The notes beneath the pieces were generated by a model. That model did not search any database, was not told where the DNA came from, and saw only the letters and a program-made list of their open reading frames with translations. The position numbers were made by a program, and so were the translations under genes. DNA of 64,000 bases from a virus, in the IMG/VR virus record IMGVR_UViG_3300045988_165974, positions 32,001 to 96,000 of that record; one strand, 5' to 3'. Within the stretch, counting starts at the first letter, position 1; each line of letters opens with the position of its first letter. Below are positions 10,178 through 47,090 of the stretch, in pieces.

Positions 10178-10193
10178 ATAACTGGGATTGAAC

Positions 10194-12453: not shown

Positions 12454-12519
12454 TGGACTTAATCGGAATTGAACCGATAACATCATGCCTGATAATTTTC
12501 CCCATTAAACTATAAGTCC
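12454..12519 (-). ncRNA. tRNA-like gene lacking an anticodon (4-nt loop)
   Basis: Acceptor GGACTTA/TAAGTCC, a D arm, and T arm ATCGG-TTCAATT-CCGAT. The anticodon arm is only TATCA-GGCA-TGATG. Total length is 66 nt. Confidence 0.55.
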
Positions 12520-12525
12520 ATATAA

Positions 12526-12597
12526 TGACCTATGAGGGAATTGAACCCTCGCCCTCACCGTGAAAGGGTGATGTCTTAGCCACTTGACTAATAGGTC
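12526..12597 (-). tRNA. tRNA-Glu (TTC)
   Basis: Acceptor GACCTAT/ATAGGTC, anticodon arm TCACC-CTTTCAC-GGTGA, T arm GAGGG-TTCAATT-CCCTC. Confidence 0.8.
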
Positions 12598-12602
12598 ATG
12601 CT

Positions 12603-12679
12603 TGGTCTAAGTAGAGGGACTCGAACCCCCAGTCTCCACATCCCAAATGTGGCGGTCTACCAAATTAACCTATACCTAG
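12603..12679 (-). tRNA. tRNA-Pro (TGG)
   Basis: Acceptor CTAGGTA/TACTTAG, anticodon arm CCACA-TTTGGGA-TGTGG, T arm GGGGG-TTCGAGT-CCCTC, A73 and an encoded CCA. Confidence 0.8.
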
Positions 12680-12851
12680 ATATTAGAGTCTAGCATCAAA
12701 ATACTAGGCTTAATCATAACAATAATTTTTAATCAAGACTCTATTTAATACTCGTTTTTAACAGAAACGTAATTAATAAATTGCTGTTAGAGTCTTTTTA
12801 TAAATATTTAGCCAGAAAACCCATTCCCTTTAGGTGATGGGATGAATGGCG

Positions 12852-14114: not shown

Positions 14115-14425
14115 AAACAGATATTCCTTTCATTAAATTAAATTAATAACTCAGCTACACAAGTAACTGTTATGCGTACTATACTGTACTGTTACCATAC
14201 AGTTGTTTCGACTTCAACTCGACAATGATATAAAGGCTTTTTACATATACATTACAAGGCTGTTCTTACTCTGACCTAACTTAAATGTATACGATAGAGC
14301 AATGGTCTGTTGCGTCAACCAAAGGTATCATGACTTAAATATCGTAGCCATCATTTCTGTGGCTTAGTCTGGTGAACCATTTAACAGAAGCCCATAAGCT
14401 TTAGCTTGTGGGTAGTTCACTTAAT
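14115..14425 (-). ncRNA. putative IscB omega-RNA scaffold
   Basis: About 300 nt directly 5' of iscB, locally GC-richer and ORF-free. It has several helices, e.g. GTGAAC..GTTCAC and CCCACAAGCT-AA-AGCTTATGGG. The position matches published IscB omega-RNAs. Confidence 0.65.
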
Positions 14426-14695
14426 TATTCCTGGAAGGAGATTTTTCAATTACAATGCACAAATATTATTAATAAAATCCTTTTTTTATCATAAACATAA
14501 TTGCTGTATGTGCATTTAATTATATTAACTTTAAGAAGGTACTTATCAAGACACTAAACATTATAAATATGAAACTTCCTAGAATTGTTCAATTTATTTT
14601 GAGGATTTGAACCTCTAAAGCACTTGTTTATTGACTTATTTACCTATTTGAATTAATTGCTGTAAGTGTCTTTTGAATGTATATTTTTAGAACAG

Positions 14696-14811
14696 GACGG
14701 GAAGTAGGAGTCGAATCTACAACCTACGGCTTAAATGGCAAATTAAAATGCTGTTAGTGTATCCCTTCTATACACATATTACGTTGCTCTACCCGTTGAG
14801 CTATTCCCGTC
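14696..14811 (-). ncRNA. tRNA-His-like gene with about 45 extra nt and degenerate anticodon and T arms
   Basis: G-1 plus ACGGGAA/TTCCCGT plus C73 (His signature). D arm GCTC-AACGGGTA-GAGC. Then hairpin GTGTAT-AGAAGGG-ATACAC followed by TAACAGCATT. Only 3 bp of anticodon stem remain. Confidence 0.5.
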
Positions 14812-14818
14812 ATAATGT

Positions 14819-14936
14819 TGCCGAAGAATAGATTTGAACTATTATCCTATAGCTTCCCTGTTTGAAATTGCTGCTTATGTATTTATCAATACATCTATTT
14901 ATTGGCTATTGCTCCAACCATTTGAGCTACTTCGGC
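14819..14936 (-). ncRNA. tRNA-like gene with a 51-nt anticodon loop
   Basis: Perfect acceptor GCCGAAG/CTTCGGC, D arm GCTC/GAGC, anticodon stem ATAGC/GCTAT and T arm AATAG-TTCAAAT-CTATT. The loop holds hairpin ATGTATT-GATA-AATACAT plus AAGCAGCAAT. Confidence 0.65.
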
Positions 14937-27391: not shown

Positions 27392-27401
27392 TAATTTTTT
27401 G

Positions 27402-27531
27402 TTAATATATCGTTAATTTTTCATTAGTGTTTTTTAAACATATTAATATATCATTGAGAAACAATTAATATCTTGTGAATATATCATTAACATTCCTGAT
27501 GCACTATATTTTTCTGTGAATATATCATTAG
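27402..27531. repeat. parC-like centromere iterons
   Basis: (T/G)(T/G)AATATATC(G/A)TT(A/G)A at 27402, 27442, 27475 and 27516, plus a degenerate copy near 27464. Spacing is 33-41 bp. Confidence 0.6.
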
Positions 27532-27740
27532 TAAACCATGAGTATATAACTGACACTCTCTATACAAGATTTAGAGCGTTTTGTTTTTCTTCCCTTTGTA
27601 ATTTATCAATGTTATTATAGTTAAACTCTTAGAATGGCTCTGACAGGGTTGTATAGGAAGTATGTAAACATTCTATTTTCCATATAGATTTTGCCGTTTT
27701 TAAATTATGAATTTTATAATATCATTTCTTGCATTTTTTA

Positions 27741-27897
27741 TTTGGGGATTTGGGATTAGGAGGAGATGTGTGGGGTTTTATTGAGTGTTGGAGGGGTGAT
27801 TTTGTAGTGTGTCTGCTGTGTGTCTGCTGTGTAAACAACTGTTGTCTCCTGCCTGAAATACTCGGAAAAAAAATCCTAAAAGTAGGGGGGAGGGGGA
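27741..27897 (+). other. G/T-rich strand-biased island with G runs
   Basis: TTTGGGGATTTGGGA...GTGTGGGG...GGAGGGG...a tandem 11-mer GTGTCTGCTGT x2 (27809-27830)...GTAGGGGGGAGGGGG. It sits in an otherwise AT-rich hub. Confidence 0.6.
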
Positions 27898-28526
27898 TAA
27901 ATTCTATATAATAATTATATTATATCTACTATTTGAAAATAGGAGCATGATTTTTAAAAAAGGCTACTGGGGAGTGTTCTAAATTTTTTCATGCATTTTT
28001 TATAGGGAATAATGGAAAAATTGCAATTGTTTATAAATTGAAACCTCTTACAATTTTCCCGTCAATTTACTTCAATTGTCAGAAAACTTACTACAATTGC
28101 ATAATCCACTCTTAAACTTGCATTTTTAAAACTCCAATAATTCCAATAAAAAATATAACAATACTTAATAATTTATTTAAAAAAATAATCCCTTTATTGT
28201 CTAAAATTCTATATAATCCTTCTATATAACTTTATTGATTTTATGATATAATATAGACAATATAATATATTATTTTTACATTTATTCATAGAATTAAAAT
28301 ACTAATATAATATACTATTATAATTTATAATTAAATATTAAACAATAACTCATATTATATAATAAAGTGTCGAATATATATAACATTTATTAAAAATAGT
28401 AACTGTCTATATGGCTTTTTAAAGTCCTTGTATTCACTTCTTAATACATCTATACCTTTAAAGCTTTAAACTCTTTATAAGCTTAATAACAGGTCATAAG
28501 GTTAATAACCTATAATTTACTATTTA

Positions 28527-28700
28527 TAAACAAATAGTTTACTAATACTATACTTTAAAAAAAATTAGTATTTATATACTAAAAGTTTACTAATACTATA
28601 CTAAAATAAGTTTAATATTTTTAAACAAATAGTATAGTATTAGTAAACTTTAAACAAGTATATTTATATTAAACAAATAGTATATAAATATTAAACTTTA
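28527..28700. repeat. iteron cluster in the hub
   Basis: AGTTTACTAATACTATACT at 28536 and 28584, with its inverted copy at 28631. TAAACAAATAGT occurs three times (plus a degenerate TAAACAAGTA copy at 28651). AGTATAT(TT/AA)ATATTAAAC occurs twice. Confidence 0.6.
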
Positions 28701-29441
28701 AAATTGGGTTTTTACCTTCTAAAATCCAGTTTAAAAAGCCTATTTTATAAAGGTATAAAAGTACTATATATATTTATAGTACTTTTATATTGTCAATTAA
28801 GGAATATATAACAGGCTTTTTATCCCTGTTATATTATATCTAACAACTAACTGGTAAAAGATTATATATTAATAGAGGGGATATATAATTATATAAGTAT
28901 GATAACAATATAAGGCTTTACAATGTAAATAATATAAATAATCTAGTTATCGTCCATTTTTAGATCAATGGACGATAACTAGGCTTTTTACCGACTAATT
29001 ACCTAATAGACTATACATTACATAATTAACATTAGGTTAATAGGTTAATCAATGCATTAGAGGGAATATTGTAGCTTTATAGCCTGTTATATAGATAACT
29101 CTAATTATTTACAACTGGATAATAGATTAACACTAGTTAATAACTAGTACTCTATATAAGAATATAATAGCCTTATGCTTTATTAATAATATAAATTATC
29201 CATAAGCTATATAAAACCTCTTACATTGGCAATACGGGGATATTTTAACCTATATAGTATTTTCAGGAATATATGACCATACCATATAAATTTATTTTTA
29301 TGGATAAATAAAGTTTTTTAAGAAATTTTATTTTTATTATTGAAATACTAGAATAAAAGTAGTACTATATAAATATCTTAATTGATAAAACATCTTATAT
29401 TAATAGCTTAAAACTTTTTTAAAAACTTTTTTATAAAGTAG

Positions 29442-29470
29442 TTGACAATATAAAGTATATAAGCTACAAT
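29442..29470 (+). promoter_or_regulatory. early promoter 1
   Basis: TTGACA, a 17-nt spacer, then TACAAT. An AAAACTTTT-rich UP-like tract lies upstream. Confidence 0.6.
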
Positions 29471-29542
29471 ATAAGAAACAGTACTTTTAATATATTAGTT
29501 AACAGGCTTTTAAAAAAAGTTTAAAAACTTTTAAAAAAGTAG

Positions 29543-29571
29543 TTGACAGAGGATTAAAAAAGTACTATACT
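29543..29571 (+). promoter_or_regulatory. early promoter 2
   Basis: TTGACA, a 17-nt spacer, then TATACT, with the same UP-like tract upstream. Confidence 0.6.
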
Positions 29572-29637
29572 TAAATTAATAAATGAGTTGATAGTTTTAC
29601 ACTAAAAACTTATTTATTACATATTAACCATAGGAAG

Positions 29638-29667
29638 TTGACTTATTCAACTACTATACTTTATAAT
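29638..29667 (+). promoter_or_regulatory. early promoter 3
   Basis: TTGACT, a 17/18-nt spacer, then TATAAT. Confidence 0.5.
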
Positions 29668-30042
29668 AAAGGGGACTAGTAAAGTATTAGTTATCTTATA
29701 TCCTCACCTAAACAACTTGTAGCTTTATAACTTGTACGGTAAAATAAAATATTCGACAACTTTGGGAAATCCTTCAATATACCGACTACTCTTTTATGTA
29801 GTAGCTCATTTCAGTATATTAAAAGCCTGTATCTTGAAGTGCTTAAGAGTGCTTGGAGTTAGGAGTATAAGAGTAACAACTCTTTGGATTAAGAATAAAT
29901 TTTTATCTTTAACCTTTTAACCCTTTTTAAAGGTGTGTGGGTTACCTATTGAAAACCCACTAACATTTTAAAATTAATCTTTGGGTATAAGGTGACAACT
30001 TTATACTCAAACACTAGTTTTAAAATAAAAGGGGGATATAAA

Positions 30043-30246
30043 ATGATAAATTTAAGAAAAAAACCAGTAGAGACTAAAAATTATAGTGTGGAATTAGACA
30101 ATAACAACTCTATGTTATTTAAAAATTTCTTACATGGATTAGGAGCAACTTTTGAAACAAGTTCATGTTATAATCTTGTACATTTTAGTTTAAATTTAAC
30201 TCATAGACAATATGTAAGAGTTAGTAACTTTTTAGATTTATTATAA
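30043..30246 (+). CDS. small hypothetical protein
   Basis: ATG 7 nt after AAAGGGGGA. The track ORF's upstream extension lacks an RBS. Confidence 0.5.
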   Translation: MINLRKKPVETKNYSVELDNNNSMLFKNFLHGLGATFETSSCYNLVHFSLNLTHRQYVRVSNFLDLL

Positions 30247-30254
30247 TTATTCAA

Positions 30255-30335
30255 GGGACTTTAAAAGTCCCTTCATGGTATTAGTGGTTGATAACCTTCT
30301 CGTGGTGATACCGTTTAAACTAATTTTAATCAACC
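30255..30335 (+). ncRNA. cap hairpin + HDV-like ribozyme candidate (copy A1, most divergent)
   Basis: Hairpin GGGACTTTAAAAGTCCC. P1 GGTATTA/TGATACC, P2 GGTTGAT/ATCAACC, L3 TTCTCGT, J4/2 CTAA. It lacks the G1.U wobble and the GG for P1.1. Confidence 0.5.
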
Positions 30336-30362
30336 AAATTTTAAGATAAAAGGGGATAAAAA

Positions 30363-30494
30363 ATGAAAAAATCATTAATTTTAGCTTTAATCATAACTAT
30401 ATTTTGCATGAGTTTAACTTGCTATCAAGTTTCAAGTGATGAAATTCAAGCAACTTTTTTAAACGGATTATTTGATATTACAATTTCATTATAA
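30363..30494 (+). CDS. small secreted/lipoprotein-like peptide (43 aa)
   Basis: ATG after AAAAGGGGA. MKKSLILALIITIFCMSLTC... Below the ORF-track length cutoff. Confidence 0.45.
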   Translation: MKKSLILALIITIFCMSLTCYQVSSDEIQATFLNGLFDITISL

Positions 30495-30507
30495 GGGGGA
30501 TAAAAAA

Positions 30508-30807
30508 ATGAAAACTATGCTAGATATTAATACAAGTGGAGATTATAGAATACATTTAGGACTTGACAAAGGATTTTTAGTAGTGCTAGATAATCAACCT
30601 GTAAATACTATAGGAGTTAAACCAATAAATTGTTGTATTTATAAATTTCCTGAAAATGCGAACTTTGAAGAGTCTGAAATTGTTGAAAATATGCAAGACT
30701 ATATTTTCGTTGCTCCAGTTCGATTTTATGTAGACTTTGATAAAATTGACACTAACATGATGGAGAAAATAACAACTCGAGCATTAAATCATGTTGGTAG
30801 ATATTAA
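30508..30807 (+). CDS. small hypothetical protein
   Basis: ATG after AAGGGGGA. Confidence 0.5.
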   Translation: MKTMLDINTSGDYRIHLGLDKGFLVVLDNQPVNTIGVKPINCCIYKFPENANFEESEIVENMQDYIFVAPVRFYVDFDKIDTNMMEKITTRALNHVGRY

Positions 30808-30812
30808 ATGAG

Positions 30813-30886
30813 GGGACTTTAAAAGTCCCATATGGTAACAAGAGTCAACCTCCCCGTGGTGTTACTGGATAACCAACTAATGACTC
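30813..30886 (+). ncRNA. cap hairpin + HDV-like ribozyme candidate (A2)
   Basis: P1 GGTAACA/TGTTACT (G1.U), P2 GAGTCA/TGACTC, P3/L3 ACC-TCCCCGT-GGT, GG for P1.1, CTAA. Predicted cut at 30833/30834. Confidence 0.65.
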
Positions 30887-30914
30887 AAATATAATAAAGT
30901 AAAGGGGATTAAAG

Positions 30915-31256
30915 ATGATGTTAAAAGAAAAATTAAACGAAATGAAAGCTAATTCAGAAGGAATAAAACTATTTGTAATTGACGATATTTTAAAATTCAA
31001 CGAAAGTGATGACGATATAAAAGCATATATTAACGATGCATTAACTTATGGTTGTTCTAGTGGTTGTGTATCTTGTTTAATCTACTATGTAGATACTCAA
31101 AAATTCTTTGATAAATATCAAGACGAAATTCTTGAAATGCTTGAAAATGCTAAAGTTGAATATGGAATAACTTTCGAAATTAATTCAAATAATCTAGCAT
31201 GGTTTGGCTATGAAGAGACTTTACGAAACATAGCAACTGAATTAGGTATTTGGTAA
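30915..31256 (+). CDS. small acidic hypothetical protein
   Basis: AAAGGGGA RBS, ATGATG start. Confidence 0.55.
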   Translation: MMLKEKLNEMKANSEGIKLFVIDDILKFNESDDDIKAYINDALTYGCSSGCVSCLIYYVDTQKFFDKYQDEILEMLENAKVEYGITFEINSNNLAWFGYEETLRNIATELGIW

Positions 31257-31262
31257 AATGAA

Positions 31263-31345
31263 GGGACTTTTAAAGTCCCTAAATGATAACAAGAGTTTAC
31301 CTCCCCGTGGTGTTATTGGAAACAAGGAAACTTGGCTAAAAACTC
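31263..31345 (+). ncRNA. cap hairpin + HDV-like ribozyme candidate (A3)
   Basis: P1 GATAACA/TGTTATT (G1.U), P2 GAGTTT/AAACTC, the same L3, P4 CAAG-GAAA-CTTG, GGCTAA. Predicted cut at 31284/31285. Confidence 0.65.
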
Positions 31346-31374
31346 AAATTTAAGATAAAAAGGGGATAAAAAAG

Positions 31375-31929
31375 ATGATGAAAAATTTAGTAAATTTAAA
31401 CGAGTTTGAATTGAATAGGGATAATGTAAAAGCTATACTTGAAAATAATTCAGAGTTTAGAAATAGCCTTGAAAGTGATTATTTTGATAGTGAAGTTTAT
31501 TATTATACAACTGAGTTATTAGACAGAATAGATGGCATAAACTGGAGAATAGATTTTGGTTCAGTTGAAATTTGGAAAGGTTTTAGCTCAAATATACTTG
31601 ATATTGTAAAAAGCATATTAGATATTGATTATTTCTTTATAAATGATACGGATATTCTTTTACAAAAATTAGAAGTTTTCTATAATGCTTTATACACTTG
31701 TCCACAGTATGGTAATCGTTTCGATAGACTAGAAGGAAGAACAGAGCAACTTTTAGAAATATTATTTACTAAAATAGAAGATAGCATTAAATCAAGTTTA
31801 GATTACATGGATGATATTGATAATCTTACAGACTGGTATATTGATTCAGGCTATGATGAAAGTTTAACTTGGAGTGGAATGTATATCAATCCAAAGACTT
31901 TCGAATTGTACGAGTTAAAACATTTATAG
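31375..31929 (+). CDS. acidic hypothetical protein
   Basis: 184 aa. RBS AAAGGGGA, ATGATG start. Confidence 0.55.
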   Translation: MMKNLVNLNEFELNRDNVKAILENNSEFRNSLESDYFDSEVYYYTTELLDRIDGINWRIDFGSVEIWKGFSSNILDIVKSILDIDYFFINDTDILLQKLEVFYNALYTCPQYGNRFDRLEGRTEQLLEILFTKIEDSIKSSLDYMDDIDNLTDWYIDSGYDESLTWSGMYINPKTFELYELKHL

Positions 31930-31971
31930 AAATGAAGGTAAAAATCATGACAAGGGCTGCGGTCCTTGTCT

Positions 31972-32025
31972 ATTTGTAAACCTACCGAGGGCGGTCCAAA
32001 GTCCGTGTAAAAGGTGATGGCAAAT
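31972..32025 (+). ncRNA. twister ribozyme candidate (C1)
   Basis: P1 ATTTG/CAAAT, T|AA, P2 ACCT/AGGT, P4 GCGG/CCGT with loop TCCAAAGT, then GATGG. Predicted cut at 31977/31978. Confidence 0.7.
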
Positions 32026-32045
32026 TATAAAGGGGGATAAAAAAG

Positions 32046-32213
32046 ATGAAAAAAAGAATTATAGCAATTTCAGGATTATTAGTAATAGGAATGATGGTAT
32101 TTCATAAGCCATTAAGCTTAAAAGCTATGGATATAGTAGACTATTATGGAGAAAAAACTGGTAAAAATGTTGTATCCGTGATAGACTTTTTAAATGAAGT
32201 TTATTATCTATAA
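32046..32213 (+). CDS. small membrane/secreted peptide (55 aa)
   Basis: ATG after AAAGGGGGA. Hydrophobic N-terminus. Below the ORF-track cutoff. Confidence 0.45.
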   Translation: MKKRIIAISGLLVIGMMVFHKPLSLKAMDIVDYYGEKTGKNVVSVIDFLNEVYYL

Positions 32214-32218
32214 ATGAT

Positions 32219-32303
32219 GGGACTTTCAAAGTCCCTATATGGTAGTAATTGGTTCGCCTCCACGTGGCACTACTGGAAACAAGTTTACTTGGCTAAGAAC
32301 CAA
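32219..32303 (+). ncRNA. cap hairpin + HDV-like ribozyme candidate (A4)
   Basis: P1 GGTAGT/ACTACT (G1.U), P2 TTGGTTC/GAACCAA, L3 TCCACGT, P4 CAAG-TTTA-CTTG, GGCTAA. Predicted cut at 32240/32241. Confidence 0.65.
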
Positions 32304-32323
32304 AAAAAGAAGGGATAAAAAAG

Positions 32324-32644
32324 ATGATAAAAAAGATTGAAGAAAAAATTAAAGAATTAGGCTTCGTTGTAGGTTGTTACAATGATAAAATTGATGACAT
32401 TTTAACTCCAGGAGCAACACGTAAAGTTTGTGGGTTACTAGAAGAAGAATACACAGACGAATTGATGCGAATTAGAGGTAAACTATATAAAGTCTGTATA
32501 GCAACTGTTGACAATGAAAAAGATATCAATATATATCATGCATTAGACTATTACAGACAATACGGAGAAGAACATCTGGATAATGACTATGAAGAAAAAA
32601 TGATGACTTTAAAGGAATATAAAGCTTTAAAAATGATGGTATAA
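32324..32644 (+). CDS. small acidic hypothetical protein
   Basis: RBS AAGGGA. Confidence 0.5.
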   Translation: MIKKIEEKIKELGFVVGCYNDKIDDILTPGATRKVCGLLEEEYTDELMRIRGKLYKVCIATVDNEKDINIYHALDYYRQYGEEHLDNDYEEKMMTLKEYKALKMMV

Positions 32645-32723
32645 GGCAAAAAATTCGAAACCGTGGGTTTTCCACGGTCTACAAATGATAGGCTAATTGT
32701 ACTGACGAGATAGCCTTTGTCTT
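32643..32723 (+). ncRNA. type II hammerhead ribozyme candidate (B1)
   Basis: Open stem II AAGGCAA/TTGTCTT. CGAAAC-stem III-GTC. Stem I TACAA/TTGTA. CTGACGAG. Loop I/stem II pseudoknot TAGGCT/AGCCTA. Predicted cut at 32679/32680. Confidence 0.75.
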
Positions 32724-32754
32724 TTGTAAAAATGATGATGAAAAGGGGATAAGA

Positions 32755-33042
32755 ATGATGAGAGAACATGCAATATATAAAGATTATATCAGATATATAG
32801 GAGATGGATTTAATTTTTCAGAATTATATTCATATGAAGACGGTAAAGAATTACATTTCAATAAATTTATGGATTATTGGGAAGACTCTAAAACTGGTAG
32901 ATTTTATCGTTGGAAAAATTCAAAAGATAATAAAATTATAAAAGAATGTCATGAAGAAACGCTTGATTATTTTGGATTTAAATCTAGTCGACTAAATGAT
33001 GATAAAGAATCTTTAGAAGATGAAGAATATCTACCATTCTAA
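32755..33042 (+). CDS. small hypothetical protein
   Basis: RBS AAAGGGGA, ATGATG start. Confidence 0.5.
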   Translation: MMREHAIYKDYIRYIGDGFNFSELYSYEDGKELHFNKFMDYWEDSKTGRFYRWKNSKDNKIIKECHEETLDYFGFKSSRLNDDKESLEDEEYLPF

Positions 33043-33044
33043 TG

Positions 33045-33126
33045 AAGGTAATAAATTCGAAACAAGGGATTTTCCCTTGTCTGTAAATGATAGGCTCTTT
33101 ATACTGACGAGATAGCCTATTACCTT
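33045..33126 (+). ncRNA. type II hammerhead ribozyme candidate (B2)
   Basis: Stem II AAGGTAAT/ATTACCTT, stem III AAGGGA/CCCTT, stem I TGTAAA/TTTATA, CTGACGAG. Predicted cut at 33081/33082. Confidence 0.75.
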
Positions 33127-33153
33127 TACAATAGAAATGAAGGGGGATTAAAG

Positions 33154-33408
33154 ATGATGAAAAATTTAGAGTGTGTATATGATAGCAGAAAATCATTTTA
33201 TGGAAAGGCAAAAGTTGAAACTAATTCAAATGAAGGTATAATTACTTTATATAGCTACGGAACAAAAGTAGCTTGTATAAAAGATGGTAAACCAGAACTT
33301 TTATGGAATGGATATTCCCAAACAACTTACAGACATATAGCCGAATTCTTTAAACAAAATGGTTTTATGGAATATAGTTCAAAAGCAGTAATTCAAACTT
33401 TATTGTAA
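33154..33408 (+). CDS. small hypothetical protein
   Basis: RBS AAGGGGGA, ATGATG start. Confidence 0.5.
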   Translation: MMKNLECVYDSRKSFYGKAKVETNSNEGIITLYSYGTKVACIKDGKPELLWNGYSQTTYRHIAEFFKQNGFMEYSSKAVIQTLL

Positions 33409-33416
33409 TTTTTTAA

Positions 33417-33445
33417 TTGACATTTTTACACAAAAATGATACTAT
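33417..33445 (+). promoter_or_regulatory. internal promoter of the early operon
   Basis: TTGACA, a 17-nt spacer, then TACTAT. Confidence 0.6.
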
Positions 33446-33448
33446 TAA

Positions 33449-33551
33449 ATCAAGAGGAGTAATCCCCTGGTTCTTAATGCAGTAGCTAATAGCTAGAGGT
33501 CGCAACTCCTCATAAAACATATGCAGAGCGAGAAAATGAAAGGGGATAAAG
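33449..33551 (+). promoter_or_regulatory. structured 5' leader (riboswitch-like?)
   Basis: GAGGAGT...ACTCCTC and GAGG..CCTC are competing helices. TCCCCT is complementary to the downstream SD AGGGGA. See the finding. Confidence 0.4.
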
Positions 33552-33998
33552 ATGATGAAAATAAAAGAATTATATGAAAACATTAGTAACTGTTTAGATT
33601 GGATTAAAATCAATAATAGTGATTTAAAAGACATATTTGAAGGTGCTAAGGCATTAAGAAGAGGAATTCAAGTCCTAGAATATGACAAAGAAATGATAGG
33701 CAAAATTGATGATAACTATTTTATTTCAAATTTTATTATGGATATTTTAGAAAAAAATCTTCCAGAGTACCAATTAAGTTTAGACATGATTGATGACATT
33801 TTAGAAGAACTAGATATAGATGATGATACTTTAGAAGAATTAGATGAAAGCGAATTTGAAAATCATGTTATAATCAAAAATACTTTCGTAGATGTAAAAG
33901 AGTCAATTTCTTTTGATGATTACTGGGATGGATTAGACTTTGATAGTCTTTTAAAAAGATTTGAGTTTGCAAAAGAGGAAATTGGTTACTTATTATAA
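33552..33998 (+). CDS. very acidic hypothetical protein
   Basis: 148 aa, rich in D/E. Confidence 0.55.
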   Translation: MMKIKELYENISNCLDWIKINNSDLKDIFEGAKALRRGIQVLEYDKEMIGKIDDNYFISNFIMDILEKNLPEYQLSLDMIDDILEELDIDDDTLEELDESEFENHVIIKNTFVDVKESISFDDYWDGLDFDSLLKRFEFAKEEIGYLL

Positions 33999-34090
33999 GT
34001 TTAAATTCGAAACAGGGAATACAGGAAATCCTGTATTGCTTGTCTATAAGTAACAGGCTGCTTGTACTGATGATGATAGCCTAAGCTTAT
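33995..34090 (+). ncRNA. type II hammerhead ribozyme candidate (B3)
   Basis: Stem II ATAAGTTTA/TAAGCTTAT, a 14-bp stem III, stem I TATAAG/CTTGTA, CTGATGA+T. Predicted cut at 34044/34045. Confidence 0.7.
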
Positions 34091-34115
34091 AAATATAACG
34101 ATAAAAGGGGATAAA

Positions 34116-34373
34116 ATGATGAACAATTTAAAATGGCAAAAACTTATAAGTAATTTGGATACAGAAGAAGGTAGACAAGAGTTTATAAAAATTGCTTCTT
34201 CTGGAATGTATTCAGGTGAAAATATTGATGGTGAAAAAGTCATAACCATTGTTTCTCAGGGAGTGGGAATGATAGTAAAAACTAAACATCACGAAAAGCC
34301 AAACTGGTGGGAATGTGTTGATTATGACGAACTTGGCTGCATGGAGTGTGTAACATACGAAAGAGCCGAATAA
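34116..34373 (+). CDS. small hypothetical protein
   Basis: RBS AAAGGGGA, ATGATG start. Confidence 0.5.
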   Translation: MMNNLKWQKLISNLDTEEGRQEFIKIASSGMYSGENIDGEKVITIVSQGVGMIVKTKHHEKPNWWECVDYDELGCMECVTYERAE

Positions 34374-34376
34374 ATT

Positions 34377-34468
34377 GAAGGATAAATTCGAAACAAGTGA
34401 TACGGGTTTTCTGTATTACTTGTCTATAAGGTTAAGCTACTTATACTGACGAGATAGCTTAATCCTTC
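34377..34468 (+). ncRNA. type II hammerhead ribozyme candidate (B4)
   Basis: Stem II GAAGGAT/ATCCTTC, stem I TATAAG/CTTATA. The pseudoknot covaries here to TAAGCT/AGCTTA. Predicted cut at 34424/34425. Confidence 0.75.
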
Positions 34469-34491
34469 TAAAATGAAAGGGGATAAAAAAG

Positions 34492-35019
34492 ATGATGAAA
34501 AAAGAAAACATTGAAAGATTTTTAAAGTTATTAAATTCAGAAGAAATAAGCGATAAAATAAAAGATATGTATCTTGACTTACTAGAGAGTCATATAGATG
34601 ATGACCTTGGAGTCAAAATAGAAATCATATTAAGCCTAGATGGAGAAGTAGATAACAGATTTTTTACAGGTAATTCAACTAGAATGGACGTATATGAAGG
34701 CAACTCAATTGTTGTGGCAGCCATCAGACATGATGTAAATATTACTGATGAAATGATGGGAGAAATAGTCGATGTATTAAGTAATGATGTATATGAAGAA
34801 TTTGTTCAATATCTTTATGGATTAGACGATATTCCAGAAGAAGAGCAAGAAGAATATCTTGAAGAAAATCTTACTTGGGATAATTTCTATGACTTTGATT
34901 CTATAATATATGGAGAAATTCAGAGAGAAGCTTGGGAAAACAATGTTGACTACTATGGAAATGAAGAAATTGACCAAAAGCTTTATGAATGTATTCAACA
35001 ATTAGAAAATCTTTTATAG
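34492..35019 (+). CDS. very acidic hypothetical protein
   Basis: 175 aa, rich in D/E. Confidence 0.55.
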   Translation: MMKKENIERFLKLLNSEEISDKIKDMYLDLLESHIDDDLGVKIEIILSLDGEVDNRFFTGNSTRMDVYEGNSIVVAAIRHDVNITDEMMGEIVDVLSNDVYEEFVQYLYGLDDIPEEEQEEYLEENLTWDNFYDFDSIIYGEIQREAWENNVDYYGNEEIDQKLYECIQQLENLL

Positions 35020-35034
35020 GAGCAGCAATGCTCC

Positions 35035-35095
35035 ACTCTAAACTCACTTGGCACATGTCAAAAGGTCCAAAGTCCTTGAAAAGAGTGATGGGAGT
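35035..35095 (+). ncRNA. twister ribozyme candidate (C2)
   Basis: Preceded by hairpin GGAGCA-GCAA-TGCTCC. P1 ACTC/GAGT, P2 ACTC/GAGT, P3 TGGC-ACAT-GTCA, P4 AAGG/CCTT with loop TCCAAAGT. Predicted cut at 35039/35040. Confidence 0.7.
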
Positions 35096-35156
35096 AAAGG
35101 CGAAGTTACCAAAATGCTCGTCTAAATATAATGGTAACAATAAAAAGGGGGTAAAT

Positions 35157-35471
35157 ATGAAGGTATATTTAGGAAATGCATTTAGTTTGCAAATGATAAG
35201 TACAACAAAGGATACAGACATAAGAGTTTCACCAGTTGATGTTCAAACTGTAAAAGATAGTGATTTTATATCAATTGTAGGTCATCAAGATACTGCATCT
35301 GTAGTTGGAAACATCTTAGGAAAAGATGTACCTTGCAATCGAGTTTCTGTTAGTTTGAGTAAAGGAGATATTTTATATGTAGCACAAATTGTTGGTGGCA
35401 GACTTCCTGTGGGAGCTACTTGTTTACCAAACGGCTTTAAATTAACATTCTTGAAAGTAACTATCTTGTAA
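35157..35471 (+). CDS. DUF1874 / AcrIII-1-family ring nuclease (cyclic tetra-adenylate degrading anti-CRISPR)
   Basis: MKVYLGNAFSLQMI...IVGHQDTA...NRVSVSLSKGDILYVAQ...GRLPVG parallels SIRV1 gp29 as I remember it (KVYLANAFSINML...SIGHDST...NRVEIKLEKEDKLYVVQ...RLEEG). ATG at 35157 follows AAAGGGGG. Confidence 0.8.
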   Translation: MKVYLGNAFSLQMISTTKDTDIRVSPVDVQTVKDSDFISIVGHQDTASVVGNILGKDVPCNRVSVSLSKGDILYVAQIVGGRLPVGATCLPNGFKLTFLKVTIL

Positions 35472-35537
35472 ATAATATGAGGTTTGGGAGTCCTTTTAAA
35501 ACTCCCCCTAAATATGAAAATGAAGGGAGAAATAAAA

Positions 35538-35675
35538 ATGGAAGAAAAAAGAGAAATGACAATAGAAGAAGAATTTGAAAAACATATGAAGACTATGGAA
35601 GGACATGTATGCTACGGTTGTAGTGGTTGTAAATTTGCTTTCTATGGAGTTTGTCCATATGCTTTAGAGGGGTAA
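35538..35675 (+). CDS. small Cys-rich peptide (45 aa)
   Basis: ATG after AAGGGAGA. Contains CYGCSGC...C. Confidence 0.4.
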   Translation: MEEKREMTIEEEFEKHMKTMEGHVCYGCSGCKFAFYGVCPYALEG

Positions 35676-35683
35676 AACCTCTC

Positions 35684-35746
35684 TTGCTTTAAACTAGCCA
35701 CCAGAAGGTGAGAGTCCAAAGCCTCTGTGAATAGTGATGGGAGTAA
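35684..35746 (+). ncRNA. twister ribozyme candidate (C3)
   Basis: P1 TTGCTT/GAGTAA (with G.U pairs), P2 ACTA/TAGT, P3 CACC-AGAA-GGTG, P4 AGAG/CTCT with loop TCCAAAGC. Predicted cut at 35690/35691. Confidence 0.7.
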
Positions 35747-35766
35747 ATAAAAGGGGGTAAACGATA

Positions 35767-35967
35767 ATGATGAAGAATGAAAATAATTTTGAAAGGATAA
35801 TATGTGATAGCTTATGGGACATAAAACAGAATTATCCAAATATTGAATTGTCTAAACATCTATTCTATATAGACACCTTTGAAAGATTAGGATATGGCAA
35901 AAAAGGAATAGAAATAACTTTAAATAACAATGATAAGTATATTATTACTAAAGTTGAAAATGATTAA
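35767..35967 (+). CDS. small hypothetical protein
   Basis: RBS AAGGGGG, ATGATG start. Confidence 0.5.
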   Translation: MMKNENNFERIICDSLWDIKQNYPNIELSKHLFYIDTFERLGYGKKGIEITLNNNDKYIITKVEND

Positions 35968-35968: not shown

Positions 35969-36063
35969 ATAGTCTAAATTCGAAACAGAGGAAAGAATGA
36001 AGGTTCTTTTCTTTGTCTATAATAAGATAGGCTCTTTATACTGATGATGATAGCCTAGACTAT
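35969..36063 (+). ncRNA. type II hammerhead ribozyme candidate (B5)
   Basis: Stem II ATAGTCT/AGACTAT, stem I TATAA/TTATA, CTGATGA+T. Predicted cut at 36017/36018. It is the last element before the operon terminator. Confidence 0.7.
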
Positions 36064-36205
36064 TATAAAAGGTTAGATAAAATGCTATCAAGAACTCATG
36101 AAAGTGAGTGTTGAATATATTATCATTTTTTGGGAGAGGGTTGCCCTCTCCTATCCCCAATATAGTAGATAAATGATAGTGATATCATTAAATATATATT
36201 ATGTA

Positions 36206-36236
36206 ATCTCTCCAATTGAGAGGTTATTTTTTTTTA
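36206..36236 (+). terminator. intrinsic terminator of the early operon
   Basis: CTCTC-CAATT-GAGAG followed by T10. Confidence 0.7.
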
Positions 36237-45733: not shown

Positions 45734-46903
45734 TTGCTAAAGAGTTACAAAACGGAAATAAACCCAACACAGGAACAAATACAAAAGATAAATAAAACAA
45801 TTGGAACTTGTAGATTTATTTATAATTTTTACATCGCTCATAATAAAGAACTCTATAACAAGGGCGAAAAATTTATGACGGCAAAATCATTCAGTGTTTG
45901 GTTAAATAATGAATTTCTACCAAATAATCCGAATTATTCATGGATAAAAGAAGTAAGTTCTAAATCAGTTAAAAAATCTATGGAAAATGCTTATACTGCT
46001 TTTAATAAGTTTTTTAAGAAACAAAGTAAGTTTCCTAGATTTAAGAAAAAGAATAAATCTGATGTAAAAATGTACTTTGTAAAAAATAATCCAAAAGATT
46101 GTTTCTGTGAAAGACATAGAATTAATATTCCTACTCTTGGATGGATTAAATTAAAAGAAAAGGGATATATTCCTACTACTAAAGACGGATATGTAATTAA
46201 AAGTGGTACGGTTTCTTGCAAAGCTGGAAGATATTATGTATCAGTTTTAATTGATACTTCTGATACAGAAAAACCACAATTAAATGACTTTGGATTAGGA
46301 ATTGATTTAGGTGTTAAAGAATTTGCGGTAATTAGTAATGGAACTATAAAGAAAAATATAAATAAAACTGCTAAATTAAAAAAAATAGAAAAACAATTAA
46401 AAAGAGAACAGCGTTGCCTATCGAGAAAATACGAAGGATTAAAGAAACGCAACAATAAAATGAAAGGAGAAGCCACTAGGCAAAATATTAAAAAACAAGT
46501 CTTAAAGGTACAGAAACTTCATCAAAGAATGGATAATATTCGTACTGATTATATCAATAAATGTGTAAATGAGATAGTGAAAACCAAGCCATCTTATATT
46601 ACCATTGAAGATTTGAATGTAAAAGGAATGATGAAGAATAAACATCTCTCTAAGGCAGTTGCTTCACAGAAATTCTATGAATTTAGAACTAAACTTGAAA
46701 CAAAATGCAAAGAATTAGGAATTGAATTAAGAATTGTAAATAGGTGGTATCCATCGAGTAAATTGTGTCATGAATGTGGTTGTATCAATAAAGATTTAAA
46801 ACTTTCTGACAGAGAATATATTTGTGGATGTGGATACCATGCTGATAGAGATTATAATGCAAGTCTTAATTTGAGAGATGCAATATCCTACAAAATAGCA
46901 TAA
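45734..46903 (+). CDS. tnpB: TnpB RNA-guided nuclease (IS200/IS605 OrfB family)
   Basis: RuvC D (GIDLGVKEFAV), E (ITIEDLNVKGM), Zn finger CHECG...CGCG, and DRDYNASLNL. TTG start. Confidence 0.9.
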   Translation: MLKSYKTEINPTQEQIQKINKTIGTCRFIYNFYIAHNKELYNKGEKFMTAKSFSVWLNNEFLPNNPNYSWIKEVSSKSVKKSMENAYTAFNKFFKKQSKFPRFKKKNKSDVKMYFVKNNPKDCFCERHRINIPTLGWIKLKEKGYIPTTKDGYVIKSGTVSCKAGRYYVSVLIDTSDTEKPQLNDFGLGIDLGVKEFAVISNGTIKKNINKTAKLKKIEKQLKREQRCLSRKYEGLKKRNNKMKGEATRQNIKKQVLKVQKLHQRMDNIRTDYINKCVNEIVKTKPSYITIEDLNVKGMMKNKHLSKAVASQKFYEFRTKLETKCKELGIELRIVNRWYPSSKLCHECGCINKDLKLSDREYICGCGYHADRDYNASLNLRDAISYKIA

Positions 46904-47090
46904 ACAAGCATTTGTAGGTATGTACCGATGGCTTTAGTCGGGAATTTACGACTGTGGACTGTACAAGAACTTGTGAGTAGTGTATTACTTTGTAATCACA
47001 AAAGCATACAGGATGAAACAGTAAGAAAAGTTTGTGAAAACTTTCAATATCTCGATATGGGTATATTTGTCCATATTTTGAGTGGCAGGA
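46780..47090 (+). ncRNA. putative TnpB omega/reRNA scaffold and right end
   Basis: ORF-free, GC-richer stretch overlapping and following the tnpB 3' end. Hairpin CCGATGGCTTTAGTCGG (46925-46941) and AATTTACGAC..TGGA, also seen after the second tnpB. Ends are uncertain. Confidence 0.45.

What the first reader, a model, noticed from the sequence alone, without database searches (positions are those of the whole stretch)
31972..35746. Three twister (type P1) ribozyme candidates with P2 and T2-pseudoknot covariation
**Copies:** 31972-32025, 35035-35095, 35684-35746.

**Resemblance to a known twister.** Read 5'-3', each parallels the rice Osa-1-4 twister as I remember it: P1, U|AA, CACU, GCC ... 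GG, UCCCAAGC, CC ... AAAAGUG, GAGGG, P1'.

**Helices**
- P1: ATTTG/CAAAT, ACTC/GAGT, TTGCTT/GAGTAA.
- An invariant T|AA follows P1.
- P2: ACCT/AGGT, ACTC/GAGT, ACTA/TAGT. Two positions covary cleanly.
- P3 is optional and present in two copies: TGGC-ACAT-GTCA and CACC-AGAA-GGTG.
- P4: GCGG/CCGT, AAGG/CCTT, AGAG/CTCT. It closes a conserved 8-nt loop TCCAAAG(T/C).
- The 3' side ends in an invariant GATGG.

**Pseudoknots**
- The last two loop nucleotides pair with the two nucleotides after P2, and they covary: GT with AC in C1 and C2, GC with GC in C3. This fits the T2 pseudoknot.
- Loop CC can pair with the GG of GATGG, which fits T1.

**Other points**
- Predicted cuts: 31977/78, 35039/40, 35690/91.
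- Each copy is preceded by an unrelated perfect hairpin that would become the 3' end of the upstream product.
Basis: partly seen in the sequence, partly recalled or inferred. Interest (0 to 1): 0.75.

Follow-up and report, generated by a model that had tools for sequence, protein, structure and literature searches.

The report
Twister ribozymes punctuating a phage operon

Summary
Observation confirmed and interpretation supported. All three copies match Rfam's twister-P1 model end to end (42.6-45.4 bits, E about 1e-7). They fall below the 67.2-bit curated cut-off, but so do textbook-looking phage twisters (51-61 bits).

About 68 distinct relatives with the same UCCAAAGY loop and GAUGG core occur in viral contigs. 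P1, P2, P4 and T2 covary strongly in them.

The loop A pairs with the U of GAUGG, a compensated form of the canonical C-G pair. Compensated combinations are abundant in viral contigs; uncompensated ones are nearly absent.

A divergent fourth twister lies at 33471-33534.

The copies belong to a promoter-to-terminator early operon (about 29.4-36.2 kb) of a low-GC phage. It holds 13 self-cleaving-ribozyme elements in 5.8 kb: 4 twisters, 5 type II hammerheads and 4 HDV-like candidates. Each lies between a stop codon and the next ribosome-binding site.

The likely role, inferred rather than shown, is cutting the polycistronic RNA into hairpin-capped upstream and 5'-OH downstream messages.

Verdict: new members of a known kind, moderate interest. 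No cleavage was tested.

The parts
31972..32025 (+). Twister c1 (type P1, no P3). P1 31972-76/32021-25. Predicted cut U31977|A31978. P2 31980-83/32012-15. T2 A31984-C31985 with G32001-U32002. P4 31991-94/32003-06. L4 31995-32002. T1 C31996-C31997-A31998 with U32018-G32019-G32020. Catalytic G32016.
   Evidence: Rfam twister-P1 42.6 bits, E 4.6e-7, model 1-68. MFE fold gives P1/P2/P4. Row 1 of alignment A1.
35035..35095 (+). Twister c2 (type P1 with P3 UGGC/GUCA). Predicted cut U35039|A35040.
   Evidence: Rfam 45.4 bits, E 7.3e-8. MFE fold gives P1/P2/P3/P4. 91% identical to the L015/L185 copy.
35684..35746 (+). Twister c3 (type P1 with P3 CACC/GGUG, T2 GC/GC). Predicted cut U35690|A35691.
   Evidence: Rfam 44.8 bits, E 1.1e-7. 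Passes the descriptor with all helices paired.
33471..33534 (+). Twister c4, not in the original finding and divergent. T1 is CGC/GCG, the P4-P2 linker is longer, and T2 is imperfect in the canonical register. Predicted cut U33475|A33476, about 22 nt behind a promoter-like site.
   Evidence: Rfam 36.4 bits, E 2.8e-5. The L185 homolog differs inside the ribozyme only by a compensatory P1 change U-A to C-G. MFE fold gives P1/P2/P3/P4.
31949..31970 (+). Stable hairpin just upstream of c1. It would become the 3' end of the upstream (o5) message, followed by a 7-nt tail.
   Evidence: Fold -15.5 kcal/mol, z -4.1.
35019..35034 (+). Hairpin GGAGCA-GCAA-UGCUCC just upstream of c2. It overlaps the o12 stop codon.
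   Evidence: Fold -10.4 kcal/mol, z -3.5.
35666..35683 (+). Hairpin just upstream of c3.
   Evidence: Fold -11.4 kcal/mol, z -2.5.
32651..32718 (+). Type II hammerhead A (AAAUUCGAAAC, stem III hairpin, GUC|, stem I, CUGACGA, then a tail pairing with loop I). Predicted cut 32679/32680.
   Evidence: Core motifs and pseudoknot read from sequence. The architecture is as published in PMC3088659. No Rfam hit.
33053..33120 (+). Type II hammerhead B. Predicted cut 33081/33082.
   Evidence: No Rfam hit even on a 111-nt input.
34003..34083 (+). Type II hammerhead C, with an extra U after CUGAUGA. Predicted cut 34044/34045.
34384..34462 (+). Type II hammerhead D. Its pseudoknot UUAAGCUA/UAGCUUAA is compensatory relative to AGGCUA/UAGCCU in the other copies. 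Predicted cut 34424/34425.
35976..36057 (+). Type II hammerhead E, after the last gene of the operon. Predicted cut 36017/36018.
32219..32305 (+). HDV-like module 4: hairpin GGGACUUUCAAAGUCCC (32219-32235) plus an HDV-like ribozyme (32241-32305). Predicted cut 32240/32241.
   Evidence: Rfam HDV-F-prausnitzii 37.7 bits against a gathering score of 44, E 2e-4. P1 and P2 read from sequence.
31263..31348 (+). HDV-like module 3: hairpin plus ribozyme candidate (31285-31348).
   Evidence: Rfam 22.5 bits, E 0.69. The sister-phage copy has a compensatory P1 change A-U to G-C.
30813..30896 (+). HDV-like module 2: hairpin plus candidate (30834-30896). P4 is absent or reduced.
   Evidence: Manual reading only: P1 GGUAAC/GUUACU, P2 GAGUCA/UGACUC, CCUCCCCGUGG. 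No Rfam hit.
30255..30340 (+). HDV-like module 1: hairpin plus candidate (30277-30340). P4 is absent or reduced.
   Evidence: Manual reading only. P2 UGGUUGAU/AUCAACCA becomes UGAUUGAU/AUCAAUCA in the sister phage, which is compensatory. No Rfam hit.
29442..29667 (+). Three strong sigma-70-like promoter matches (29442, 29543, 29638; 11 of 12 positions) upstream of the operon.
   Evidence: These are consensus matches only, and promoter-like sites are not enriched overall in the region.
33417..33445 (+). Internal promoter-like site TTGACA-17-TACTAT with a TG extension, conserved in L185, just upstream of c4.
36203..36236 (+). Intrinsic terminator (10-bp stem plus a run of nine T) that ends the operon.

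Best explanation
Copies c1-c3, and probably the divergent c4, are genuine type-P1 twister self-cleaving ribozymes.

**Fold and chemistry.** Each should fold into P1-P2-(P3)-P4, locked by two pseudoknots. T1 is loop CCA with UGG of GAUGG (CGC/GCG in c4). T2 is the last two loop nucleotides with the two nucleotides after P2. Each should cut between the U and the first A of U|AA, leaving a 2',3'-cyclic phosphate upstream and a 5'-OH downstream. This chemistry is established for the class and inferred for these copies.

**Setting.** They lie in one early operon of a low-GC phage. The operon is bounded by promoter-like sites at about 29.4-29.7 kb and a terminator at 36.2 kb. 13 of its 15 gene junctions (counting the one after the last gene) carry one of three self-cleaving classes: 4 twisters, 5 type II hammerheads and 4 HDV-like candidates. 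The predicted cut lies 15-67 nt after the upstream stop codon. The ribozyme ends 17-36 nt (61 nt for c2) before the next start codon, except for the last hammerhead, which is followed by the terminator rather than a gene.

**Most likely function (inferred).** Co-transcriptional punctuation of the polycistronic RNA into single-gene messages.
- Each upstream product would end in a stable hairpin. For twister and HDV-like modules this is a separate hairpin; for hammerheads it is stem III itself.
- Each downstream product would begin with a structured 5'-OH leader just ahead of its Shine-Dalgarno sequence.
- This would uncouple the stability and translation of neighbouring genes.
- c4 would additionally remove the triphosphorylated leader of transcripts from the internal promoter.
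For: **Sequence and structure**
- Full-length twister-P1 model hits with E 7e-8 to 5e-7, and no such hits elsewhere in the 64 kb.
- Core pattern found 3 times against 0.01 expected.
- In an alignment of 68 distinct relatives, covariation is 0.69 against 0.17 for shuffles (0 of 500 reach it) and 0.07-0.14 for slid controls. Double changes occur in P1, P2, P4 and T2.

**T1 pseudoknot**
- Otherwise identical viral scans gave at least 119 loci for CCA+GAUGG and at least 122 for CCC+GAGGG.
- The uncompensated combinations gave 10 and 16 loci in complete scans, with 0 and 3 valid.
- A search that ignored T1 found ten further fully complementary triplet types.

**Conserved residues and folding**
- The catalytic G, the A 3' of the cut and the conserved L4 nucleotides are invariant. 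Their roles are described in PMC5408937.
- MFE folds recover the helices.

**Copy 4**
- A compensatory P1 change relative to L185.

**Context**
- Coordinate table, promoters and terminator, and upstream hairpins.
- In 103 phage twisters the 36 nt just upstream fold to a median of -9.1 kcal/mol, against -4.2 further upstream and -1.9 downstream. Median gaps to the flanking ORFs are about 25 nt.
- The sister phage is about 77% identical across the array and keeps a ribozyme at each junction examined there.

**Literature**
- Ribozymes flanking single genes in prophages have been shown to cleave, and polycistronic processing has been proposed (PMC3088659; PMC6765202).
Against: - No cleavage data exist for these sequences.
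- Scores are below Rfam's 67.2-bit gathering score.
- The fold energies of the isolated ribozymes are unremarkable (z -0.8 to -1.6), and c3's MFE prefers an alternative inner pairing.
- c4 has an imperfect T2 in the canonical register and a long P4-P2 linker, so it may be slow or inactive.
- The third T1 pair is a weaker A-U.
- The function (punctuation and end protection) is inferred from layout only. The relative set used for covariation was pre-filtered on pairing, so its percentage paired is circular, although the diversity of pair types is not.
Confidence: 0.87

Rival explanations
1. The elements are real ribozymes, but the trait under selection is not mRNA punctuation. One option is that the conserved junction modules (ribozyme plus Shine-Dalgarno sequence) act as homology blocks that let early-gene cassettes be shuffled between phages. 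Another is that the unusual RNA ends serve phage-host conflict, for example evading or engaging RNases or RNA-repair and defence systems that depend on end chemistry.
For: - In the sister phage the same genes occur in a permuted order (o4-o9-o8-o5-o10 against o4-o5-o6-o7-o8-o9-o10), with ribozyme modules at every junction.
- Different twister sequences occupy the same junction in the two phages.
- The array is about 77% identical while the DNA downstream is 97-98% identical.
- The array genes are small proteins of unknown function typical of early or anti-defence regions.
- The literature calls the role unresolved.
Against: - Shuffling does not require catalytic cores, yet catalytic residues and both pseudoknots are kept by compensatory change.
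- Three unrelated folds that share only the cleavage chemistry occupy equivalent positions. This argues that cleavage itself is what is selected.
- The window encodes no RtcB-type ligase; the candidate protein is DUF2828/DUF7788.
- This reading is not exclusive of punctuation.
Confidence: 0.2
2. The elements are twister-derived but catalytically inert. On this reading they are structured spacers that stabilise the ends of messages or bind a protein, and the twister resemblance is a relic.
For: - Scores are below the Rfam cut-off.
- T1 has a weaker A-U pair.
- c4 has an imperfect T2.
- High-throughput testing shows that pseudoknot defects are what most often kill natural twisters (PMC11662667).
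Against: - For c1-c3 both pseudoknots are fully paired and the catalytic G, the A, and the L4 nucleotides are intact.
- The CCA/UGG form is about as common as the canonical form in viral contigs and is maintained by compensation.
- Canonical phage twisters also fall below the cut-off.
Confidence: 0.07
3. The match is a chance resemblance. On this reading the elements are ordinary intergenic hairpins or weak terminators in AT-rich phage DNA.
For: - The hairpins upstream of c1 and c3 are flagged as terminator-like.
- The fold z-scores of the ribozymes alone are unremarkable.
Against: - Pattern count is 3 against 0.01 expected.
- Model E-values are about 1e-7.
- Shuffled loci gave 2 descriptor hits in three replicates, against 147 in the real loci.
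- Covariation is extensive, including both pseudoknots.
Confidence: 0.01

Closest known systems
Type-P1 twister ribozyme (Rfam RF03160; rice Osa-1-4, structure 4OJI; described by Roth et al. 2014 as summarised in PMC5408937)
   Same: - Same order of elements: P1, U|AA, P2, T2 strand, optional P3, P4, 8-nt L4, A-rich linker, P2', GA plus T1 strand, P1'.
- Same catalytic G and A.
- Same 2-bp T2 and 3-bp T1.
- When P3 is absent the 5-nt spacer is CNNNG: CGAGG here, and CAAUG in Osa-1-4 as I recall it.
   Different: - The third T1 pair is A-U (loop UCCAAAGY, 3' GAUGG) instead of C-G (UCCCAAGC, GAGGG).
- This and short AU-rich helices lower the model score to 43-45 bits, below the 67.2-bit cut-off.
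- Copy c4 has CGC/GCG in T1, a longer linker and a doubtful T2.
Clusters of hammerhead and twister ribozymes flanking single genes in prophages and phages (Perreault et al. 2011, PMC3088659; reviewed in PMC6765202)
   Same: - Several self-cleaving ribozymes in the same orientation flank individual small genes of variable identity in phage DNA.
- Type II hammerheads have a 1-2 bp stem II and a pseudoknot between loop I and the 3' tail.
- The proposed role is processing of polycistronic RNA.
   Different: - Here three classes (twister, type II hammerhead, HDV-like) share one operon at very high density: 13 elements in 5.8 kb, at 13 of its 15 junctions.
- All three show the same layout: stop codon, hairpin, cut, ribozyme, Shine-Dalgarno sequence.
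- I could not check whether an array of this density and mix has been described, because Roth 2014 and Weinberg 2015 are not held.
HDV-like ribozyme of Faecalibacterium prausnitzii (Rfam RF02682)
   Same: The four HDV-like modules share the nested P1/P2/P3/P4 layout, the CCUCnCGUGG P3/L3 segment and a C in a CUAA junction. The best copy scores 37.7 bits.
   Different: All are below the 44-bit cut-off, and two copies lack a clear P4 and get no model hit. Each is preceded by a conserved hairpin GGGACUUU(A/C)AAAGUCCC.
Synthetic ribozyme insulators placed in 5' leaders (RiboJ-type parts; from my own knowledge)
   Same: Copy c4 sits about 22 nt downstream of a promoter-like site. It would cut off the promoter-derived leader to give a defined 5'-OH message.
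   Different: This is a natural twister rather than an engineered hammerhead-derived part, and the promoter and the cleavage are both untested.

Membership tests
Twister ribozyme, type P1 | Nested helices P1, P2 and P4 (P3 optional) in the canonical order, with ends in P1 (the P1 permutation). | tested here: met
   The Rfam model aligns positions 1-68 in all copies. MFE folds recover the helices. In 68 relatives P1 (inner 4 bp), P2 and P4 carry compensatory changes.
Twister ribozyme, type P1 | Pseudoknot T1 between L4 and the strand 3' of the conserved GA. | tested here: met
   CCA/UGG in c1-c3 and CGC/GCG in c4. Compensated combinations are abundant and uncompensated ones nearly absent. Ten further complementary triplet types were found without constraining T1.
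Twister ribozyme, type P1 | Pseudoknot T2 (2 bp) between the two nucleotides after P2 and the last two L4 nucleotides. | tested here: met
   c1 and c2 have AC/GU and c3 has GC/GC. In relatives that pair is G-C in 52 and A-U in 16, with no mismatches. For c4 the result is inconclusive: G.U plus a mismatch in the canonical register, or 2 bp if the register is shifted by one.
Twister ribozyme, type P1 | Strongly conserved L1 and L4 nucleotides: N|A at the cut followed by A, L4 U...AA, the A-rich linker, and the catalytic G of GA (features as listed in PMC5408937). | tested here: met
   The invariant columns of A1 include TAA, TCCAAAG, AA and GATGG.
Twister ribozyme, type P1 | Rfam curated gathering score of 67.2 bits. 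This is an operational database threshold, not a biochemical feature. | tested here: not met
   The copies score 42.6-45.4 bits, and c4 scores 36.4. The same threshold rejects well-formed phage twisters in L084 and L173, which score 51-61 bits, so it does not discriminate in this setting.
Twister ribozyme, type P1 | Site-specific self-cleavage at the N|A step, giving a 2',3'-cyclic phosphate and a 5'-OH. | not testable with these tools
   This needs transcription and cleavage assays or end-specific RNA-seq.
Twister-sister ribozyme | Twister-like stems without pseudoknots, with cleavage on the opposite strand of the loop. | tested here: not met
   Both pseudoknots are present and covary. No twister-sister hit appeared in the permissive Rfam scans.
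Type II hammerhead (context elements) | Core CUGANGA, GAAA and UH| ; stems I and III closed by loops; stem II open and short; pseudoknot between loop I and the tail 3' of stem II. | tested here: met
   All core nucleotides are present in the five copies. The pseudoknot covaries in the window (AGGCUA/UAGCCU against UUAAGCUA/UAGCUUAA) and across about 30 viral relatives. The architecture is described in PMC3088659. Rfam's hammerhead models give no hit.
HDV-like ribozyme (context elements) | Nested double pseudoknot (P1, P1.1, P2, P3, P4) with a catalytic C in J4/2 and cleavage at the 5' end of P1. | tested here: inconclusive
   The best copy scores 37.7 bits against a cut-off of 44, a second has E 0.69, and two get no hit. 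P1 and P2 show compensatory changes between copies and against the sister phage. P4 is absent or reduced in two copies.

The most novel reading that the evidence does not exclude
The operon may be a 'ribozyme-punctuated' cassette system. On this reading any one of three unrelated self-cleaving folds can fill a junction, because only the cut and a shared end design matter: a hairpin-capped 3' end, and a structured 5'-OH leader directly before the ribosome-binding site. The same conserved junction modules would also act as the crossover points that let closely related phages permute and swap early-gene cassettes. If so, this locus and its sister phages would be a compact natural system for finally testing what bacterial and phage twister and hammerhead ribozymes are for.
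Probability: 0.3. Interest if true: 0.6.

Novelty: new member of a known kind. Interest (0 to 1): 0.36.

Why it matters
The biological role of twister and hammerhead ribozymes in bacteria and phages is still described as unresolved (PMC6765202). These copies add nothing new in kind. They do sit in an unusually clean, dense example: one promoter-to-terminator operon with 13 ribozymes of three classes, a uniform stop-hairpin-cut-ribozyme-SD layout, and a sister phage with permuted cassettes. That makes the 'polycistronic punctuation' idea directly testable.

There are also two practical points:
- Rfam's twister-P1 cut-off (67.2 bits) misses phage twisters wholesale.
- Its hammerhead models miss these short-stem-II type II hammerheads.

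Automated annotation therefore leaves such arrays invisible.

Tried and rejected
- **Megablast against known phages.** A search of 30-40 kb found no match.
- **First viral scan.** Anchoring on TAAAC gave mostly chance matches, with only L015, L053 and L084 valid. I replaced it with a 3'-anchored pattern.
- **Single four-combination scan.** I ran three separate scans instead.
- **Descriptor bug.** The first T1-agnostic descriptor returned only one linker length per start. This was fixed.
- **Flawed control.** In one search the mean of the 'far upstream' control is unreliable because of a slicing artefact near contig ends, so I quote only medians and fractions.
- **Genome collection.** The genome-contig scan was mostly chance, with 8 valid loci out of 120 sampled, and did not reveal the host.
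- **RNA ligase idea.** I considered that the 504-aa 'RNA-binding protein' might be an RtcB-type ligase for ribozyme ends. Pfam shows DUF2828/DUF7788 instead.
- **Hammerhead models.** Rfam gives no hit for the five hammerhead elements even on a 111-nt input. They were identified from core motifs, covariation and the 2011 description.
- **Leader and first HDV-like modules.** Rfam finds nothing credible in the 5' leader or for HDV-like modules 1 and 2.
- **Literature gaps.** The Roth 2014 paper is not held, the CHiTA supplements are not held, and searching papers for the loop sequence returned only primer matches. I therefore could not establish whether the CCA/UGG form has been assayed.
- **HDV-like alignment.** The MAFFT alignment of the HDV-like copies is out of register at the 3' side, so no formal pair count was made on it.

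Full report
**1. The observation**

- Helices P1, P2 and P4 are as listed, and P3 is present in c2 and c3.
- U|AA is invariant, the 8-nt loop is UCCAAAG(U/C), and GAUGG is invariant.
- The T2 pairs are AC/GU, AC/GU and GC/GC.

The predicted cuts fall at U31977|A31978, U35039|A35040 and U35690|A35691. A pattern made of the shared core (TAAAC...TCCAAAG...GATGG) occurs three times in the window against 0.01 expected from shuffles. The copies are only 63-64% identical to one another, and the identity is concentrated in the core, so they are not recent duplicates. The hairpins immediately upstream are real, with z = -4.1, -3.5 and -2.5.

**2. The proposed test**

At Rfam's gathering thresholds no twister is reported. 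In permissive mode all three copies match the twister-P1 model over its full length:
- 45.4, 44.8 and 42.6 bits
- E 7e-8 to 5e-7 in a 6-kb scan
- E 8e-7 to 5e-6 over the whole window

The only other hit of that family in 64 kb is a fourth copy at 33471-33534 in the same operon (36.4 bits).

The family's curated cut-off is 67.2 bits. I checked whether that threshold means much here. Well-formed twisters in other phage contigs (L084, L173) score 51-61 bits and also fail it. A sub-threshold score is therefore not evidence against membership in this setting.

**3. Relatives and covariation**

A strict structural filter required P2 4/4, T2 2/2, and P1 and P4 at least 3/4. It passed 94 hits, of which 68 are distinct sequences.

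On a MAFFT alignment of these 68 (A1), pair counting gave a covariation score of 0.69. Shuffles gave 0.17 (0 of 500 as high) and slid controls gave 0.07-0.14. Changes on both sides occur in the inner four pairs of P1, all four pairs of P2, three of the four pairs of P4, and one T2 pair (G-C 52, A-U 16). Because the set was filtered on pairing, its percentage paired is circular. The diversity of pair types is not.

**4. T1 is a 3-bp helix, and the variant is a compensated form**

Compared with the Rfam consensus (loop UCCCAAGC, 3' GAGGG), the window copies have loop CC**A** and GA**U**GG, which would be a C-G to A-U swap.

I tested this with four viral scans identical except at those two positions.

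| Loop / 3' strand | Loci with raw pattern | Structurally valid loci |
|---|---|---|
| CCA + GAUGG | at least 119 (capped) | 89 |
| CCC + GAGGG | at least 122 (capped) | 75 |
| CCA + GAGGG | 10 (complete scan) | 0 |
| CCC + GAUGG | 16 (complete scan) | 3 |

A descriptor that does not constrain T1 at all found 110 distinct twisters in the fetched loci. Outside the two pattern-selected types, the T1 triplets were:
- CAC/GUG (12 sequences)
- CGC/GCG, CUA/UAG and UCC/GGA (2 each)
- UAC/GUA, CUC/GAG, CUG/CAG, CCU/AGG, CCG/CGG and UCA/UGA (1 each)

All of these are fully complementary, with only a handful of exceptions. Shuffled loci gave 2 hits in three replicates. T1 is therefore supported at all three positions, and CCA/UGG is one common natural form of it.

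**5. Conserved and catalytic residues**

A review of the class (PMC5408937) lists the defining features:
- P1, P2 and P4, with T1 and T2
- at least ten highly conserved nucleotides in L1 and L4
- a scissile U-A step with a conserved A
- a catalytic guanine, G45 in the rice ribozyme; by my reconstruction of the Osa-1-4 numbering this is the G of the 'GA' that precedes the T1 strand

All are present in c1-c3 (invariant columns). High-throughput testing of natural twisters (PMC11662667) found that helix imperfections are tolerated but pseudoknot and catalytic defects are not. c1-c3 have neither kind of defect.

**6. The fourth copy**

c4 (33471-33534) has T1 CGC/GCG, a P3, and a longer P4-P2 linker. 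Its T2 is imperfect in the canonical register: G.U plus a mismatch, or two Watson-Crick pairs if the register is shifted by one. Its homolog in the sister phage L185 differs inside the ribozyme at only two positions, which together convert a P1 U-A pair to C-G. I regard c4 as probably functional, but with less confidence.

**7. What surrounds the copies**

The window is phage DNA, 28% G+C. It encodes a portal protein, a sigma factor, a DnaB-like helicase and a primase. The portal is about 40% identical to those of the roughly 130-kb Clostridioides difficile phiCD211-like phages. No near-identical known phage exists.

Genes on the + strand start after a 2.3-kb AT-rich non-coding stretch. Strong promoter-like sites lie at 29442, 29543 and 29638, and a clean intrinsic terminator lies at 36203-36227 followed by nine T. 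Between them are 15 small ORFs of unknown function.

13 of the operon's 15 junctions, counting the one after the last gene, hold a ribozyme-like element on the same strand:
- four HDV-like modules, at about 30.28, 30.83, 31.29 and 32.24 kb
- four twisters
- five hammerheads, at about 32.65, 33.05, 34.00, 34.38 and 35.98 kb

That is 13 elements in 5.8 kb, and none occur elsewhere in the window.

- **Hammerheads.** They are missed by Rfam. They carry every core nucleotide. Their layout matches the published type II architecture: a 1-2 bp stem II and a pseudoknot between loop I and the tail just 3' of stem II (PMC3088659). That pseudoknot covaries within the window and across about 30 viral relatives.
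- **HDV-like modules.** These are weaker. One has E 2e-4, one has E 0.69 and two get no hit. They do show compensatory P1 and P2 changes between copies and against the sister phage.

**8. Layout and likely mechanism**

Each predicted cut lies 15-67 nt after the upstream stop codon. Each ribozyme ends 17-36 nt (61 nt for c2) before the next start codon, just ahead of an AAAGGGGGAUAAA-type ribosome-binding site. The exception is the last hammerhead, which follows the final gene and precedes the terminator.

In all three classes the upstream product would end in a stable hairpin. For twister and HDV-like modules this is a separate hairpin; for the hammerheads it is stem III. The downstream product would start with a 5'-OH and most of the ribozyme fold.

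This layout is general for phage twisters, not particular to this window. In 103 of them the 36 nt just upstream fold to a median of -9.1 kcal/mol, against -4.2 further upstream and -1.9 downstream. 54% have z below -2, and the median gaps to the flanking ORFs are about 25 nt.

From this I infer co-transcriptional punctuation of the polycistronic RNA into single-gene messages with protected ends. The same idea has been proposed in the literature and remains unproven. c4 lies about 22 nt behind an internal promoter-like site (33417-33445, conserved in L185). It would trim that transcript's triphosphorylated leader.

**9. Sister phage**

L015, L382 and L406 come from one contig, and L185 from another. 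They are 97-98% identical to the window at 36.7-44 kb but only about 77% identical across the array. The same genes appear there in a permuted order (o4-o9-o8-o5-o10), with a ribozyme module at each junction examined. Different twister sequences occupy junctions equivalent to those of the window's c2 and c3.

This shows selection for having a ribozyme at each junction. It also raises the possibility, which does not exclude the first, that the conserved junction modules serve as recombination points for cassette shuffling.

**10. Verdict**

- **Observation:** confirmed.
- **Twister-P1 interpretation:** supported by the model, by covariation in every helix and both pseudoknots, and by the conserved catalytic residues.
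- **Novelty:** these are new members of a known ribozyme class in a known type of context (phage, next to hammerheads).
- **Not shown:** cleavage itself and the biological role.
- **Interest:** moderate, resting mainly on the density and regularity of the three-class array as a test bed for an open question.

Noticed in passing
window 32651-32718, 33053-33120, 34003-34083, 34384-34462, 35976-36057 (+): Five type II hammerhead ribozymes with a 2-bp stem II and a pseudoknot between loop I and the 3' tail, one per gene junction. Rfam's hammerhead models give no hit at all. Copies C and E have an extra U after CUGAUGA.
   Followed up: yes
window 30255-30340, 30813-30896, 31263-31348, 32219-32305 (+): Four HDV-like ribozyme candidates. 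Each is preceded by a nearly identical hairpin GGGACUUU(A/C)AAAGUCCC. Only one reaches E 2e-4 against the F. prausnitzii HDV model, and two lack a clear P4.
   Followed up: partly
window 30043-35967 compared with L406, L382, L015 and L185: The sister phage carries the same early-gene cassettes in a different order and with insertions and deletions, always with a ribozyme module at the junction. The array is about 77% identical while the DNA downstream is 97-98% identical. The junction modules may act as recombination points.
   Followed up: partly
L173 3907-6309 (also L193, L084, L122, L201): Other phage contigs carry 3-5 twisters within 2-3 kb. In L173 the five copies the descriptor found each use a different T1 triplet (CAC, UCC, CCA, CUG, CGC). 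This hints that tandem ribozymes may diversify their pseudoknots to avoid mispairing with each other.
   Followed up: no
Rfam RF03160 (twister-P1) applied to window, L084, L173, L015, L185: The family's 67.2-bit gathering score excludes every phage twister examined, including canonical CCC/GGG ones at 51-61 bits. Standard annotation will therefore not report them.
   Followed up: partly
window 12852-14420 (-); 45734-47024 (+); 58516-59758 (+): An HNH-endonuclease ORF (presumably IscB-like) with an adjacent HEARO RNA, and two TnpB-type transposase genes each followed by a RAGATH-18 RNA. These RNA-guided-nuclease-type mobile elements inside the phage genome explain the non-tRNA Rfam hits at gathering threshold.
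   Followed up: no
window 9916-14936 (-): A cluster of eight tRNA genes. Two are much longer than normal: 10194-10330 is 137 nt, and 14819-14936 is 118 nt with a 50-nt insert in the anticodon-arm region. This suggests introns or other insertions.
   Followed up: no
window 10477-11991 (-): A 504-aa protein next to the tRNA cluster. PHROGs names it 'RNA-binding protein' and Pfam shows DUF2828 plus DUF7788. It is not an RtcB-type ligase.
   Followed up: partly
window 27400-29700: A 2.3-kb AT-rich non-coding stretch lies between the divergent gene blocks. It contains many short direct and inverted repeats, for example GTGTCTGCTGTGTGTCTGCTGTG near 27810 and repeated AAACAAATAGT.../TAGTTTACTAATACTATAC units at 28520-28690. 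It may be an origin or a regulatory region.
   Followed up: no
window 29670-30042 (+), L406 1391-1449: The operon's leader of about 370 nt has no recognisable RNA element, and Rfam finds nothing credible there. The sister phage has a type II hammerhead directly upstream of the first gene (o1) at the equivalent place.
   Followed up: partly
window 35472-35537 (+): One of the two junctions in the array without a ribozyme carries only a hairpin, GGGAGUCCUUUUAAAACUCCC. The other, 30495-30507, is too tight to hold an element.
   Followed up: no
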